Assembly (NCBI RefSeq): GCF_009914755.1
Contig: NC_060934.1
DNA length: 64,000 bases
From: the human T2T-CHM13v2.0 reference genome, Homo sapiens
Strand: one strand, 5' to 3'
The notes beneath the pieces are model-generated. The model made no database searches. It was not told the origin of the DNA and saw nothing but the letters and a program-made list of their open reading frames with translations. Positions within the stretch are counted from its first letter, which is position 1; every line of letters starts with the position of its first letter. This document shows, in pieces, positions 40,802-58,867 of the stretch. Made by a program: the position numbers and the translations under genes.

Positions 40802-40817
40802 GAAACTATCTGAATGC
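40802..40817 (+). other. L1 target-site duplication, 5' copy (GAAACTATCTGAATGC)
   Basis: Immediately precedes the L1 5' end. Its exact reverse complement lies at 58852-58867, next to an L1 poly(A) tail. Confidence 0.9.
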
Positions 40818-41851
40818 GGCTGGCAGCCAAGATGGCCGAATAGGAACAGCGCCGGTCTACAGCTCCCAGCGTGAGCGACGCAGAAGACGGGTGATTTCTG
40901 CATTTCCATCTGAGGTACCGGGTTCATCTCACTAGGGCGTGCCAGACAGTGGGCACAGGACAGTGGGTGCAGTGCACTGTGCGCGAGCCAAAGCAGGGCA
41001 AGCATTGCCTCACTCGAGAAGCGCAAGGGGTCAGGGAGTTCCCTTTCCTGGTCAAAGAAAGGGGTGACAGATGGCACCTGGAAAATCGGGTCACTCCCAC
41101 CCTAATACTGCGCTTTTCCAACGGGCTTAAAAAATGGCACGCCAGGAGATTATATCCCGCACATGGCTCGGAGGGTCCTACGCCCACGGAGTCTCGCTGA
41201 TTGCTAGCACATCAGGCTGAGATCAAACTGCAAGGTGGCAGCGAGGCTGGGGGAGGGGTGCCCGCCATTGCCCAGGCTTGCTTAGGTAAACAAAGCAGCC
41301 GGGAAGCTCGAACTGGGTGGAGCCCACCACAGCTCAAGGAGGCCTGCCTGCCTCTGTAGGCTCCACCTCTGGGGGCAGGGCACAGACAAACAAAAAGACA
41401 GCAGTAACCTCTGCAGACTTAAATGTCCCTGTCTGACAGCTTTGAAGAGAGCAGTGCTTCTCCCAGCACGCAGCTGGAGATCTGAGAACAGGCAGACTGC
41501 CTCCTCAAGTGGGTCTCTGACTCCTCACCCCCGAGCAGCCTAACTGGGAGGCAACCCCCAGTAGGGGCAGACTGACACCTCACACGGCTGGGTACCCCTC
41601 TGAGACAAAACTTCCAGAAGAATGATCAGACAGTAGCATTCACGGTTCACGAAAATACGCTGTTCTGCAGCCACCGCTGCTGATACCCAGGCAAACAGGG
41701 TCTGGAGTGGACCTCTAGAAAACTCCAACAGACCTGCAGCTGAGGGTCCTGTCTGTTAGAAGGAAAAATAACAAACAGAAAGGACATCCACACCAAAAAC
41801 CCATCTGTACATGACCATCATCAAAGACCAAAAGTAGATAAAACCACAAAG
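40818..41851. promoter_or_regulatory. L1 5' UTR with internal sense promoter and antisense promoter (ASP faces the CTNNA3 sense direction)
   Basis: CpG-rich L1PA 5' UTR with YY1 motif CAAGATGGCC at ~40828. ORF0 ATG at 41268 (minus) is stopped after 18 codons. Activity is not shown by sequence. Confidence 0.6.
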
Positions 41852-42865
41852 ATGGGGAAAAAACAGAGCAGAAAAACTGGAAACTCTAAAAAGCACAGTG
41901 CCTCTCCTCCTCCAAAGGAACACAGCTCCTCACCAGCAACGGAACGAAGCTGGACGGAGAATGACTTTGACAAGTTGAGAGAAGGCTTCAGACGATCAAA
42001 CTACTCCGAGCTACAGGAGGAAATTCAAATCAAAGGCAAAGAAGTTAAAAACTTTGAAAAAAATATAGACGAATGTACAACTAGAATAACCAATACAGAG
42101 AAGTGCTTAAAGGAGCTAATGGAGCTGAAAACCAAGGTTCGAGAATTACGTGAAGAATGCAGAAGCCTCAGGAGCCGATGCGATCAACTGGAAGAAAGGG
42201 TATCAGTGATAGAAGATGAAATGAATGAAATGAAGCGAGAAGGGAAGTTTAGAGAAAAAAGAATGAAAAGAAATGAACGAAGCCTCCAAGAAATAGGGGA
42301 CTATGTGAAAAGACCAAATCTACGTCTGATTGGTGTACCTGAAAGTGATGGGGAGAATGGAACCAAGTTGGAAAACACTCTGCAGGATATTATCCAGGAG
42401 AACTTCCCCAATCTAGCAAGGCAGGCCAACATTCAGATTCAGGAAATACAGAGAACACCACAAAGATACTCCTCGAGAAGAGCAACTCCAAGACACATAA
42501 TTGTTAGATTCACCAAAGTTGAAATGAAGGAAAAAACGGTAAGGGCAGCCAGAGAGAAAGGTCGGGTTACCCACAAAGGGAAGCCCAGCAGACTAACAGC
42601 GGATGTCTCGGCAGAAACTCTACAAACCAGAAGAGAGTGGGGGCCAATATTCAACATTCTTAAAGAAAAGAATTTTCAACCCAGAATTTCATATCCAGCC
42701 AAACTAAGCTTCATAAGTGAAGGAGAAATAAAATACTTTACAGACAAGCAAATGCTGAGAGATTTTGTCACCAACAGGCCTGCCCTAAAACAGCTCCTGA
42801 AGGAAGCACTAAACATGGAAAGGAACAACCGGTACCAGCTACTGCAAAAACATGCCAAATTCTAA
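41852..42865 (+). CDS. L1 ORF1p (RNA-binding chaperone), open frame of 337 aa
   Basis: MGKKQSRKTGNSK...coiled coil...RREWGPIFNILKEKNFQPRISYPAKLSF. One residue shorter than canonical (LREGFRR). Confidence 0.9.
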   Translation: MGKKQSRKTGNSKKHSASPPPKEHSSSPATERSWTENDFDKLREGFRRSNYSELQEEIQIKGKEVKNFEKNIDECTTRITNTEKCLKELMELKTKVRELREECRSLRSRCDQLEERVSVIEDEMNEMKREGKFREKRMKRNERSLQEIGDYVKRPNLRLIGVPESDGENGTKLENTLQDIIQENFPNLARQANIQIQEIQRTPQRYSSRRATPRHIIVRFTKVEMKEKTVRAAREKGRVTHKGKPSRLTADVSAETLQTRREWGPIFNILKEKNFQPRISYPAKLSFISEGEIKYFTDKQMLRDFVTNRPALKQLLKEALNMERNNRYQLLQKHAKF

Positions 42866-42928
42866 ACACCATCGAGGCTAGGAAGAAACTGCATCAACTA
42901 ACGAGGAAAATAGGCAGCTAACATCATA

Positions 42929-56098: not shown

Positions 56099-56902
56099 AA
56101 CACTTAATACATTATCACAATTAAAAATATATTGTACTATGTATCAAATGCTGATAATCTCATTAAAAATAAGTTCTGATTACTGACTTCAAGGAACTTC
56201 AGTATAACTTAGTTTTAGGAAAGTAAATGAGAATAATTATAGCAGATGAAAATGTTCAAGATGTTATAGTACCTTTAAATATAAAAGTGTTAAGAGAGTA
56301 CATGTGGAATGGTAAGAATGAAGAAGGCTAATTGATAATTTTCCAGGAGTTGAAGTTCAGTTCAGATCTATAAAAATTTTAGATCAAAATATGCATATCA
56401 TAAAACATTAAACAGAGCAGAAGAGCTTATGATGAAAAGCAATAATCTTTTGCCCTGCTCCTTGCTACTTTCAATCCAACACCCTAGGAAAAACCTCCTT
56501 TGCTTCCAGTCCCACAATCTGGAGGAAGCAGGTTTGATTTTAGATCTTCTGGTGCTTACTTCATAACTTTAAGTCGTATGCTTATATCTCTTTTCTTTGA
56601 TTGATTTATTTAAGGAATTATCTATTTACTCCCTACAATGAAATATGAAAGTTTTGTTCCCCTACCTCTGTGTCCTTACCCTTTCTTCCTTCCAATGTTT
56701 GATAATTTGAATTATTTTTTGTTTTATTATTATCCCTCTGTTTTGTATTCTATCATTTTTAATTAGTGTCCTGACCACTCTTTGTGTATAGTAAGACTAA
56801 CAGCATCCATTCCACTTCCTCCCCCTTTACTTCTGCATTCCACCTTTCCCTTCTGTTTTCTGTCACTTCAAATTGTATTCTTACATTGACAAGGTTGTTA
56901 AC

Positions 56903-57204
56903 TTTTTTTTTTTTTTTTTTTTTGAGACGGAGTCTCCCACTGTCGCCCAGGCTGGAGTGCAGTGGTGCGATCTCTGCTCACCACAACCTCTGCCTCCTGG
57001 GTTCAAGCTATTCTCGTGCCTCAGCCTTCTGACAAGCTGGGACTACAGGCACCCACCGCCATGCCCGGCCAATTTTTGTATTTTTAGTAGAGATGGGGTT
57101 TCACCATGTTGGCCAGGCTGGTCTCGAACTCCTGACCTCAGGTGATCCACCTGCCTCGGCCTCCCAAAGTGTTGGGATTACAGGCATGAGCCACCAAGCC
57201 TGAC
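56903..57204 (-). mobile_element. AluSx-like
   Basis: Reverse-strand Alu with T-run. TSD CAAGGTTGTTAAC. Confidence 0.92.
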
Positions 57205-58851
57205 CAAGGTTGTTAACATTTTAATTCTGATATGCAACCATAATGAAGTCATCTGCATTTGTTCGTTAGCTAATAGTAAAAGTTGAAAATCACAGTGCAC
57301 CATTAATGTTACTGTGACTCTATACATTTTATTTAGTACAGGGTGATGTAGGATACTGAAATCATATCTTCTTCTCCAAGGACCCAATGTCACAACCCCT
57401 GGGCCACTCAGAGGGGAATGATTTATGATGAAGGTCAAATAGATTCTCTTTTCTATTGCTTAAAGTTGTGCTACACTGATCTAGTTTATGTTTGGGTTAT
57501 GCGTTTCCTATATATATTTTTTGTTTTCTCTGGAGGTTCTGAATCTTGATCATAGCCTAAATTTGGTCTCTCTTTCAATCATAATAACTATTTTGTGAAG
57601 TCTTCTTCTTTTTTTCCCCCATAGAGATATTTCTTCTGAAACCGTATGTCGTCCTTTCAATTGTGTGTTTTGAGACATCTCTGGATTAGGCACACCATTT
57701 TATTTATCCTATGTCTTTCTGTTTCTGGCATTTTCCCTCTTTCTTGCCATAAAACAGCTTTTCTCTGGGGCCATACTCCCCAGATAATTTCCTCAAATTA
57801 TGTTGTGAAAAAAAGCCCTCATTTTATGACTTGGGGTTAAGCGTTGAGCTGTTGGCAAACAGTAATAGAGAAAGTGACAGGGAGCACAGCATTTCACATA
57901 TAGGAATTCAAGTGATCACCTCAGTTTTCAGACCCACTGCTCATTTCTGCCTTGTATCATACTTGCCTACTCCAAGCCAGAGATTCTTTGGATTCTAGTG
58001 GGCAGAGTGACTCTGACATCCTCTGCAGACTCCTCATATCATATTCTAAACTGTAGCTTTCTCTTCTTGTTTTCATCTGTCAACACCCTTCTGTTAGCTT
58101 TCCTTCTTCAGAAGGCTCTCAGCTACTGTTGGCTCCCCTTAACAATCTTGTTATGGTTGTATTCCTTTGCTGTAGTTTCTCTATTTCTGTCTCTGTGAAG
58201 TCTGGAGAAAGACTTGATTAAAAGAGCTCGGGGTGCCATTTTGAAAAGGACTGATACACCCAGTGGACCTCCTAGTCAAGGGAATGGTCTGAGCAAAGAT
58301 AGATTAGTAGAGTTAAAAGGATTATGGTAAATAGTTCACCTGAAACAGAGAATGAATCAAGTGAAAGTAAACACTTTAGGACTTGCTGATTCAAAGTTGA
58401 ACCCACCCTTAGACAGAAAAGATTGCATTGATATGTGAGGAATCAGGGAGCAACCTTAAGTTCTTAAGCAGCCAAGTGTTATTATACATAGACTTTAGCA
58501 GGCTGGGCTTAGTTATTTAAAAGCATGAAGCTTCTGAAGGCCATTTCCTGGGCAGGTTTCTGTAAAAAGTAAACAGTTGTTTACTTTTACATTTCAGGTT
58601 TAATTTTAAGCCTTGACCTTGAGAGTCATTTGACCTAAGTAAATAGATGAATTATCTGAAGTATCTGGGAATTTATTTAACTACTTTAAATGGCCACATA
58701 CAAATATAATGAGAGGAGGCATTATTGTATAGTTGTTAATAGTTTTCCTTACCCCCTCTACTATAATTGTTGTATAAAATCTAAAGTTTTTAGTTCCATG
58801 AGTGGTACACGGTAAGCTTTCAAAAATTAGTAATTATAAGAGTGTTCTCTT

Positions 58852-58867
58852 GCATTCAGATAGTTTC
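58852..58867 (-). other. Inverted partner copy of the TSD at 40802-40817
   Basis: GCATTCAGATAGTTTC is the reverse complement of GAAACTATCTGAATGC and abuts an L1 poly(A) tail. Confidence 0.9.

What the first reader, a model, noticed from the sequence alone, without database searches (positions are those of the whole stretch)
40802..58867. Split, inverted TSD records an L1-mediated inversion of a ~9.3-kb intronic segment of CTNNA3
Seen: GAAACTATCTGAATGC (40802-40817) directly precedes the full-length L1. It is absent at that L1's present 3' end (46960, no A-tail, runs into (TA)n) and at the next L1 tail (49514). Its exact reverse complement lies at 58852-58867, flush against the poly(A) tail of a minus-strand L1 3' end. 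Established: target-primed reverse transcription leaves direct TSDs around a single element. Inference: the tail at 58868 is the original 3' end of L1 copy A, so the DNA at ~49.5-58.85 kb has been flipped. Inferred ancestral order: TSD-L1A(+)-polyA-TSD-[spacer reversed]-old L1 3' end(-)-L1C(-)-(TA)-old L1(-)-(TA)-L1B(-). Both breakpoints are buried in kb-scale L1 homology, so short reads would miss the event. I cannot tell whether it is already catalogued.
Basis: partly seen in the sequence, partly recalled or inferred. Interest (0 to 1): 0.85.

Follow-up and report, generated by a model that had tools for sequence, protein, structure and literature searches.

The report
L1-pair inversion in a CTNNA3 intron
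A 9.3-kb piece of a CTNNA3 intron was flipped by recombination between two oppositely oriented blocks of L1 repeats, a known kind of rearrangement that is unusually well recorded here and probably has no effect on the gene.

Summary
GAAACTATCTGAATGC lies flush against the 5' end of a full-length L1 (40802-40817, +). Its exact reverse complement lies flush against the poly(A) of a minus-strand L1 tail (58852-58867). The 16-mer occurs 4 times in the 3.1-Gb assembly.

The inversion reading is supported, and a second, TSD-independent witness backs it. An old L1 that hosts the partner elements is also split. Its 3' end is on the + strand at 49580-49923. Its 5' part is on the - strand just past the window end.

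- The spacer (49515-58851) is flanked by two complete 8.7-kb inverted arms: 40818-49514, and 58868 to about 3.5 kb beyond the window.
- Each arm is full L1 - (TA)n - old L1 - (TA)n - 1.1-kb L1 tail.
- The arms are a gene-conversion mosaic. The young L1A received old-type sequence from its partner L1B, plus a roughly 2.5-kb non-L1A block. Identity ranges from 80-87 % to 99-100 %.

The mechanism is homologous recombination (NAHR or double-strand-break repair with crossover), not retrotransposition. The class is known (Lee 2008; Porubsky 2021). Whether this locus is catalogued or polymorphic could not be checked.

The parts
40802..40817 (+). 5' copy of L1A's target-site duplication, GAAACTATCTGAATGC
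40818..43150 (+). L1A-native, young-type 5' part of the arm-1 L1 (L1 coordinates 1 to about 2350). CpGs are retained.
   Evidence: young-type at 102 of 109 diagnostic columns. CpG kept in arm 1 and decayed in arm 2 at 37 sites, against 8 the other way; best genomic relatives 94-95 %.
43190..44170 (+). Conversion tract 1: old-type (L1B-like) sequence inside L1A, 98-100 % identical to arm 2. It includes a 564-bp identical run at 43491-44054.
44300..45350 (+). Second L1A-native young-type stretch (L1 coordinates about 3480-4530), 90-96 % identical to arm 2
45500..49160 (+). Conversion tract 2 / duplicated block: old-type L1 3' part, (TA/TG)n (46964-47031), old-L1 pieces (47032-48310), (TA/CA)n (48311-48399), and the first about 760 bp of the 1.1-kb young-type L1 3' end 'L1C' (from 48400). 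Identity to arm 2 is 97-100 %.
49161..49514 (+). Native tail and poly(A) of L1C, a 5'-truncated young-type L1 nested in the old L1. It is only 92.3 % identical to the arm-2 tail, with a sharp switch at about 49161.
49515..49579 (+). 65-bp filler between L1C's poly(A) and the old-L1 tail. It does not carry L1A's TSD; its origin is unclear.
49580..49923 (+). 3' terminus of the old L1, now on the + strand. This is the second witness of the inversion.
   Evidence: 75-79 % to many genomic copies (40 of 2757 candidates scored); colinear with old-L1 piece 47941-48310 in 4 of 4 copies, gap 22-45 bp.
49924..58851 (.). Single-copy part of the flipped spacer. The whole spacer is 49515-58851, 9,337 bp.
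   Evidence: no L1A homology. (inner 518 bp single-copy). (AT skew sign opposite to the left intron; GC skew not).
58852..58867 (-). 3' copy of L1A's target-site duplication, in reverse complement
58868..59226 (-). L1A's own poly(A) and last about 340 bp, young-type
59227..61391 (-). Arm-2 copy of the block: rest of the 1.1-kb L1 3' end (to 59956), microsatellite (59957-60047), old-L1 pieces (60048-61321), (TA)n (61322-61391)
61392..64000 (-). L1B, an old-type full-length L1. It continues 3.5 kb beyond the window to about chr10:68,453,527, where the old L1's 5' part follows on the same strand.
   Evidence: old-type at 97 of 109 (L1 coordinates 1-2350), 9 of 10 (2351-3290), 13 of 17 (3291-4480) and 23 of 25 (4481-6146) diagnostic columns; old-L1 flanks meet at L1 coordinates about 3791 / 3789.

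Best explanation
This is a post-insertional, homology-driven inversion (NAHR / double-strand-break repair with crossover) between inverted L1-bearing repeats, accompanied by gene conversion.

Inferred ancestral state (+ strand): left flank - TSD - L1A(+, young, full length) - poly(A) - TSD - spacer in the opposite orientation - old-L1 tail(-) - L1C(-) - (TA)n - old-L1 middle(-) - (TA)n - L1B(-, older, full length) - old-L1 5' part(-).

L1A is homologous to L1B over 6.1 kb. Its last 1.1 kb is homologous to L1C. Recombination between these inverted homologies did two things:
- It flipped the DNA between them. L1A's tail and 3' TSD went to the far side of the spacer, and L1C's tail and the old-L1 terminus came next to L1A.
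- It copied L1B's 3' part, the (TA)n-old L1-(TA)n block and the start of L1C non-reciprocally into the other arm.

The simplest route is one gap-repair event resolved as a crossover. At least one further conversion followed. The result is two 8.7-kb inverted arms around a 9.3-kb spacer.

Shown: the split TSD, the split old L1, the two arms, the different ages of the two L1 5' parts, and the non-reciprocal mosaic.

Inferred: the order and number of events, and their dates. L1A is roughly L1PA3-like in age, and the block transfer is later. The youngest tract differs by about 0.4 % and so is probably only a few million years old.
For: Split TSD. It is exact, flush at both junctions, and rare genome-wide.

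Split old L1.
- The tail at 49580-49923(+) continues the arm-internal old-L1 piece in 4 of 4 reference copies.
- The old-L1 5' part lies on the - strand beyond arm 2, and L1B's two old-L1 flanks meet at L1 coordinates about 3791 / 3789.

Arms. 8,729 aligned columns at 93.5 % identity. Homology ends at the L1 5' end on one side and at the poly(A) on the other.

Different ages of the two L1s.
- CpG is retained in arm 1 and decayed in arm 2 at 37 sites, against 8 the other way, in the first 2.4 kb (p = 1.5e-5). Elsewhere the counts are 7 against 11.
- L1A's best genomic relatives are at 94-95 %, and L1B's are at 90-91 % at different loci.

Painting at 161 diagnostic columns against 8 young-type and 7 old-type reference copies.
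- L1 coordinates 1-2350: arm 1 young-type at 102 of 109.
- 2351-3290: arm 1 old-type at 9 of 10.
- 3291-4480: arm 1 young-type at 13 of 17.
- 4481-6146: arm 1 old-type at 22 of 25.
- Arm 2 is old-type in all four blocks.
- So the exchange was non-reciprocal.
- Both inner 1.1-kb tails are young-type: 19 of 19 columns in arm 1, 14 of 19 in arm 2.

Switch points and tract ages.
- Between the two inner tails, identity drops from 99.2 % to 92.3 % at about 49161 / 59226.
- The longest identical run is 564 bp. The shuffled maximum is 180 bp, and 0 of 2000 shuffles reach 564.
- Tract ages differ: 5 of 1320 against 39 of 2370 non-CpG mismatches, Fisher p = 4e-4.
- The duplicated block differs by 3 % or less between arms. 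The two independent young-type tails differ by 7.7 %. So the block was copied after L1A inserted.
Against: - No outgroup or second human haplotype could be examined, so the ancestral orientation rests on internal logic only.
- The strand-composition test is mixed. AT skew has the opposite sign in the spacer (3 of 3 bins negative, against 12 of 12 positive in the left intron). GC skew does not flip, and the 3.7 kb beyond arm 2 is also AT-negative. My repeat mask was incomplete.
- L1C's own TSD was not found, because its 5' junction lies in a microsatellite. The 65 bp after its poly(A) are unexplained.
- The arm-2 tail carries a small old-type patch: 3 of 19 diagnostic columns.
- The reference sets were chosen from only 40 scored of 7,386 and 9,867 first-look candidates. 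5 of the 20 fetched copies were dropped as non-colinear.
- One event and several events cannot be told apart.
Confidence: 0.8

Rival explanations
1. 3' transduction followed by NAHR. One arm is a retrocopy of the other: a read-through transcript of L1B through the old L1 to L1C's poly(A) signal, inserted 9 kb away in inverted orientation. A later crossover split its TSDs.
For: Arm homology starts at an L1 5' end with a TSD and stops exactly at a poly(A). This was my first reading.
Against: - The two L1 5' parts are different lineages of different age: 80-87 % identical, CpG asymmetry 37 against 8, different best relatives, young-type against old-type at about 100 of 109 columns.
- The two tails differ by 7.7 % with a sharp switch.
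- A retrocopy would be one type throughout and uniformly diverged.
Confidence: 0.03
2. The rearrangement happened during L1A's integration. The nascent cDNA invaded, or switched template to, the nearby L1C/L1B DNA or a read-through RNA of them. The chimeric arm and the inversion would then date from the insertion itself.
For: - L1 integration can produce inversions and chimeras with resident L1s. I saw only the search listing and abstract for PMC7058536 and bioRxiv 10.1101/2024.12.14.628481. The cell-culture examples are recalled, not read here.
- The oldest part of the duplicated block (3 % divergence, 11 of 365 positions) is not far from L1A's own age, given the small counts.
Against: - Both TSD copies are complete and flush, and L1A has a complete 5' end, as after an ordinary insertion.
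- The block differs by 0.4-3 % between arms, against 7.7 % between the two independent young-type tails.
- At least two tract ages are present.
- The young/old/young/old alternation would need several template switches.
Confidence: 0.06
3. There was no inversion. The inverted 16-mers are a coincidence, or the arrangement is an assembly error in CHM13.
For: None from the calls. It is listed because no second assembly could be examined.
Against: - The 16-mer occurs 4 times in 3.1 Gb, and two of those sit exactly at L1 junctions 18 kb apart.
- The independent old-L1 split requires the same flip.
- The arm ends that anchor orientation are only 80-92 % identical, and the near-identical core is about 4 kb. 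By inference, that is shorter than the long reads used for such assemblies.
Confidence: 0.02

Closest known systems
Retrotransposon recombination-mediated inversion (RRMI; L1-RMI) of Lee et al. 2008, PLoS One 3:e4047 (PMC2603318; passages read)
   Same: Two inverted elements of one family span the breakpoints. The elements become chimeric. Their TSDs no longer match, and matching TSDs identify the ancestral state. That is the logic used here.
   Different: - The recombining units here are 8.7-kb composites (L1 + old L1 + L1 tail), not single elements.
- The exchange is largely non-reciprocal and duplicated a roughly 2.5-kb block that L1A never contained.
- That paper's main text has 0 occurrences of 'gene conversion'.
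- Its L1-RMI events average 3-14 kb. This one flips 9.3 kb of unique DNA, or 10-26 kb counting arm parts.
- Its locus list is in supplements I could not open.
Polymorphic balanced inversions flanked by inverted L1 pairs (Porubsky et al., bioRxiv 10.1101/2021.12.20.472354; passages read)
   Same: They report NAHR between inverted L1s. 22 of 132 sequence-resolved NAHR inversions have L1 pairs, 21 of 22 of those pairs exceed 90 % identity (median 97.2 %), and 6 of 22 are full-length on both flanks. The present arms are 93.5 % identical overall, with a core at 98-100 %.
   Different: Polymorphism or recurrence is not shown for this locus. CTNNA3 does not occur in that main text, and the call set is in closed supplements.
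Twin-priming L1 inversions
   Same: An L1 whose 5' and 3' parts lie in opposite orientation.
   Different: Twin priming leaves both parts adjacent and inside direct TSDs. Here the parts are 18 kb apart, 9.3 kb of unique DNA lies between them, and the TSDs are inverted.
Inverted segmental duplications and palindromes that toggle by NAHR and homogenise by gene conversion
   Same: Long inverted arms, patchy near-identity from arm-to-arm conversion, and a spacer that can flip.
   Different: The arms are built wholly from transposable elements. SD tracks exclude such repeats by definition (passage in PMC13629690). The arms arose by gap-repair copying between dispersed L1s, not by duplication of unique DNA.

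Membership tests
L1-L1 recombination-mediated inversion (RRMI / NAHR) | Two elements of the same family in inverted orientation span the two breakpoints | tested here: met
   inverted arms at 40818-49514(+) and 58868 to about 67527(-), 93.5 % identical over 8,729 columns
L1-L1 recombination-mediated inversion (RRMI / NAHR) | The breakpoint-spanning elements have non-matching TSDs, and un-inverting restores a direct TSD pair | tested here: met
   for L1A. The arm-1 L1 has the TSD at its 5' end and old-L1 sequence after its 3' end. A neighbouring control L1 has direct TSDs.
L1-L1 recombination-mediated inversion (RRMI / NAHR) | The elements are chimeric: front of one, back of the other | tested here: met
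   the arm-1 L1 is young-type at its 5' end and old-type at its 3' end. L1A's young-type tail sits in arm 2. The pattern is more complex than one reciprocal switch; it is a non-reciprocal mosaic.
L1-L1 recombination-mediated inversion (RRMI / NAHR) | A second, independent marker is split reciprocally by the same flip | tested here: met
   old-L1 3' terminus on the + strand at 49580-49923, and its 5' part on the - strand beyond arm 2
L1-L1 recombination-mediated inversion (RRMI / NAHR) | Orthologous loci in outgroup species show the un-inverted state | not testable with these tools
   No primate genomes are held; the tool states that the window's assembly 'has no relatives here'. Both flanks are single-copy, so there is no in-genome proxy.
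L1 3' transduction retrocopy | The L1 part of the offspring is the same lineage and age as the source, with uniform divergence along the copy | tested here: not met
Twin-priming L1 inversion | The inverted 5' segment abuts the 3' segment, and both lie inside one direct TSD pair | tested here: not met
   the TSDs are inverted, and the parts are 18 kb apart with unique DNA between them
Recurrent (toggling) human inversion polymorphism | Both orientations segregate in humans, and haplotypes are shared between orientations | not testable with these tools
   Only one human assembly is held. CTNNA3 is absent from the main texts searched.

The most novel reading that the evidence does not exclude
The locus is still active. 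The 8.7-kb arms, with a roughly 4-kb core at 98-100 % identity and runs of 424-564 identical bases, keep exchanging sequence. The 9.3-kb spacer would then toggle or be polymorphic in living humans. Short reads and screens based on segmental-duplication tracks would miss it, because the arms are made only of transposable elements. More generally, the locus would show one way an inverted 'segmental duplication' is born. Gap repair between dispersed inverted L1s copies the intervening non-homologous DNA, lengthens the homology, and raises the rate of later inversion.
Probability: 0.25. Interest if true: 0.5.

Novelty: new member of a known kind. Interest (0 to 1): 0.3.

Why it matters
- The flipped segment is deep intronic. 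The exons in the window are at 4161-4280 and 21822-21988, and the only annotated element is an enhancer at 9152-9321, so an effect on CTNNA3 is unlikely.
- Its value is as a fully self-documenting example. Two independent split markers (a TSD and a host L1) fix the ancestral order without any outgroup.
- The arm mosaic shows that crossover and long non-reciprocal transfer acted on the same inverted L1 pair and turned a 6-kb, roughly 88 % L1 homology into SD-like 8.7-kb arms.
- Such TE-only inverted repeats are excluded from SD-based candidate lists (passage in PMC13629690). Loci like this may therefore be under-ascertained sources of inversion polymorphism.

Tried and rejected
- 3' transduction was my first model. 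I rejected it after the identity mosaic, CpG asymmetry and lineage painting.
- I considered repeated reciprocal crossovers as the source of the mosaic. I rejected this because arm 2 is not the complementary mosaic; both arms are old-type in the shared tracts.
- BLAST of L1A against the spacer found no old-L1 tail, because the old element is too diverged. I replaced it with the test against four other genomic copies.
- The empty-site test inside the genome gave no information, because both 518-bp flanks are single-copy.
- The strand-skew test was inconclusive: AT skew flips, GC skew does not, and the mask was incomplete.
- L1B's own TSD could not be defined with confidence; the two flanks overlap by only a few bases.
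- L1C's TSD was not found.
So the locus tables of Lee 2008, Porubsky 2021 and the other catalogues were not seen.
- Literature searches for CTNNA3 with 'inversion polymorphism' (2 papers, neither about this locus by title or abstract) and with 'inversion' + 'Strand-seq' (0 papers) gave nothing.

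
Full report
OBSERVATION

The 16-mer GAAACTATCTGAATGC sits at 40802-40817, directly before the first base of a full-length plus-strand L1. Its exact reverse complement sits at 58852-58867, directly before the poly(T) of a minus-strand L1 3' end.

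With up to two mismatches these are the only two matches in the window, and 0 of 100 shuffles gave two or more. In the whole 3.1-Gb assembly the 16-mer occurs four times. The other two copies are in unrelated contexts.

The L1 that starts at 40818 ends near 46963 without an A-tail and runs into (TA/TG)n. The next L1 tail, at 49514, is followed by a different sequence.

The neighbouring minus-strand L1 at 36.1-39.4 kb has an ordinary direct 13-bp TSD, which serves as a local control.

ANATOMY

Everything after L1A is present twice in inverted orientation: (TA)n, two pieces of a much older L1 (about 72 % to L1A; L1 coordinates 3789-4706 and 5463-5792), another microsatellite, and a 1.1-kb L1 3' end (coordinates 5048-6146) with poly(A).

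The window's assembly is held, so I fetched the next 10 kb. Arm 2 is also complete. Positions 40827-49522 align with 67518-58866 (window numbering continued past 64000) at 93.5 % over 8,729 columns.

The locus is therefore two 8.7-kb inverted arms: 40818-49514, and 58868 to about 67527. They flank a 9,337-bp spacer at 49515-58851. In T2T-CHM13 coordinates the locus is about chr10:68,426,802-68,453,527.

Homology stops at the L1 5' end on the outside and at the poly(A) on the inside.

A SECOND WITNESS OF THE FLIP

Beyond arm 2's L1 (L1B), the old L1 continues on the minus strand at L1 coordinates 2112-3781. L1B's two old-L1 flanks meet at about 3791 / 3789. L1B is therefore a simple nested insertion.

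Next to arm 1's inner poly(A), after 65 unexplained bases, lies a 344-bp stretch (49580-49923, + strand). It belongs to an abundant old repeat: 40 of 2,757 first-look candidates were scored, at 75-79 % identity.

In 4 of 4 other genomic copies that I could still fetch, this stretch lies 22-45 bp downstream of the homologue of the last old-L1 piece inside the arms, colinear and on the same strand. It is therefore the old L1's 3' terminus.

The old L1's 5' part and 3' terminus thus lie on opposite strands, one outside each arm. This is exactly reciprocal to L1A, whose 5' TSD is outside arm 1 and whose 3' TSD is inside arm 2. Flipping the spacer, with breakpoints anywhere in the arms, restores both at once.

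WHAT THE ARMS ARE

My first idea was that one arm is a retrocopy of the other, made by 3' transduction. It failed on four counts.

1. Identity along the arms is a mosaic.
- The first 1.5 kb is 80-89 % identical.
- 42.3-43.2 kb is 94-95 %.
- 43.2-44.1 kb is 98-100 %.
- 44.1-44.7 kb is 90 %.
- 45.3-48.3 kb is 97-100 % (99.3-100 % in the old-L1 part).
- The last 340 bp is about 93 %.
- The longest identical run is 564 bp, against a shuffled maximum of 180 bp. 0 of 2000 shuffles reach 564.

2. CpG decay is asymmetric in the first 2.4 kb. There are 37 sites with CG in arm 1 and TG/CA in arm 2, against 8 the other way (p = 1.5e-5). Elsewhere the counts are 7 against 11.

3. L1A's first 1,473 bp find their best genomic relatives at 94-95 %. 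L1B's first 1,458 bp find theirs at 90-91 %, at different loci. In each search only 40 of 7,386 or 9,867 candidates were scored.

4. I fetched ten full-length copies from each hit list. I kept the 8 young-type and 7 old-type copies that were colinear, and dropped L030, L036, L042, L043 and L044. I then scored both arms at the 161 columns where the two sets differ.
- Arm 2's L1 is old-type throughout.
- Arm 1's L1 is young-type at L1 coordinates 1-2350 (102 of 109 columns).
- It is old-type at 2351-3290 (9 of 10 columns).
- It is young-type at 3291-4480 (13 of 17 columns).
- It is old-type at 4481-6146 (22 of 25 columns).
- The old-type patches are the 98-100 % tracts.
- Arm 2 is not the complementary mosaic, so the exchange was non-reciprocal (gene conversion), not a series of reciprocal crossovers.

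The two inner 1.1-kb tails are both young-type: 19 of 19 columns in arm 1 and 14 of 19 in arm 2. Mean identity to the two reference sets agrees. Between these two tails, identity falls abruptly from 99.2 % to 92.3 % at about 49161 / 59226, with private changes on both sides. The last 340 bp therefore belong to two different insertions. L1A's own tail, with its TSD, is in arm 2. L1C's tail, with the old-L1 terminus, is in arm 1.

MECHANISM

L1A is a young, roughly L1PA3-like full-length L1. The subfamily name is my estimate from divergence, not a library call. It inserted with a 16-bp TSD about 9 kb from an older composite in the opposite orientation. That composite was an old L1 carrying L1B and the 5'-truncated L1C.

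L1A is homologous to L1B along its length. Its last 1.1 kb is homologous to L1C.

The simplest history that yields the present state is a double-strand break in one partner, repaired from the other, with one end pairing in the L1A/L1B homology and the other in the L1A-tail/L1C homology. Gap repair then copies L1B's 3' part, (TA)n, old L1, (TA)n and the start of L1C. Resolution as a crossover flips the spacer.

A separate inversion and a separate conversion would give the same result, and I cannot tell the two apart.

More than one exchange occurred.
- Non-CpG mismatches are 5 of 1,320 in 46961-48290, against 39 of 2,370 in the flanking parts of the tract (Fisher p = 4e-4).
- A separate 0.9-kb tract lies at 43.2-44.1 kb.

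The duplicated block differs by 0.4-3 % between arms, whereas the two independent young-type tails differ by 7.7 %. The transfer therefore post-dates L1A's insertion, which argues against an integration-coupled origin. The youngest tract (about 0.4 %) suggests exchange within the last few million years. That date is an inference from usual substitution rates and carries wide Poisson error.

TESTS THAT DID NOT DECIDE

- AT skew on the + strand is positive in 12 of 12 3-kb bins of the left intron (+0.071) and negative in 3 of 3 spacer bins (-0.090), as a recent flip predicts. GC skew does not flip, and the flank beyond arm 2 is also negative. I had only a partial repeat mask. I count this as inconclusive.
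- Both 518-bp flanks of the predicted empty site are single-copy in the assembly, so its contiguity cannot be checked from this genome.
- No primate genomes are held.

COMPARISON WITH WHAT IS KNOWN

- Lee et al. 2008 (PMC2603318; passages read) describe retrotransposon recombination-mediated inversions between human and chimpanzee. They use non-matching TSDs of chimeric breakpoint elements as the criterion for the derived state.
- Porubsky et al. (bioRxiv 10.1101/2021.12.20.472354; passages read) report that 22 of 132 sequence-resolved NAHR inversions in humans are flanked by inverted L1 pairs, with a median identity of 97.2 %. They also report that many inversions toggle.
- The kind of event is therefore known.
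- The particular feature here is the non-reciprocal copying of a non-homologous block. It enlarged the inverted homology into SD-like arms made only of transposable elements. SD tracks exclude such repeats by definition (passage in PMC13629690).

IS THIS LOCUS IN PRINT?

- CTNNA3 with 'inversion polymorphism' found 2 papers. Neither concerns this locus by title or abstract.
- CTNNA3 with 'inversion' and 'Strand-seq' found 0 papers.
- CTNNA3 does not occur in the main text of seven papers, by term search of each: PMC2603318, the Porubsky preprint, PMC3961182, PMC6748972, PMC13629690, PMC5991517 and PMC12350158.
I therefore cannot say whether the inversion is catalogued or polymorphic.

VERDICT

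The mechanism is homologous recombination between inverted L1-bearing repeats with extensive gene conversion. It is a new, well-documented member of a known class, intronic and probably neutral. Interest is modest. The open question is whether the locus still toggles in humans.

Noticed in passing
window 36056-39439: A 5'-truncated minus-strand L1 (L1 coordinates about 2799-6143, 92.8 % to L1A) has an intact direct 13-bp TSD, TGACCAGTCATCT, at 36056-36068 and 39427-39439. It forms another inverted pair with L1A across only 1.4 kb, but shows no sign of inversion.
   Followed up: yes
window 49515-49579: 65 bp lie between L1C's poly(A) and the resumption of the old L1. Their origin is unclear: local alignments to the corresponding stretch of four other old-L1 copies are only weak. 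The stretch begins with GAAAC, like L1A's TSD, which I take as coincidence. No TSD for L1C was found.
   Followed up: partly
window 59157-59178 (aligned to arm-1 positions 49210-49231): Inside L1A's otherwise young-type tail there is a 22-bp patch with old-type states (3 diagnostic columns, 5 sites). It could be a very short conversion from an old-type L1 3' end, or a lineage difference.
   Followed up: no
window 58890-59956: The arm-2 copy of the 1.1-kb L1 3' end has private deletions of 4, 4 and about 25 bp relative to the arm-1 copy, and more private substitutions in its first 400 bp (97.0 % identity there, against 99.2 % in the next 365 bp).
   Followed up: no
window 46964-47031, 48311-48399, 59957-60047, 61322-61391: (TA)n/(TG)n microsatellites mark the element junctions in both arms and differ in length between the arms. 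One grew where L1B's A-tail should be. The other grew out of the old L1's own GTATATATACA stretch, as seen in other copies of that family.
   Followed up: partly
L005:6301-10000 (chr10:68,456,301-68,460,000): The 3.7 kb beyond the old L1's 5' part also has negative AT skew on the + strand, contrary to the left intron. A further minus-strand L1 fragment lies at L005:8809-8951. Unmasked repeats may explain the skew.
   Followed up: no
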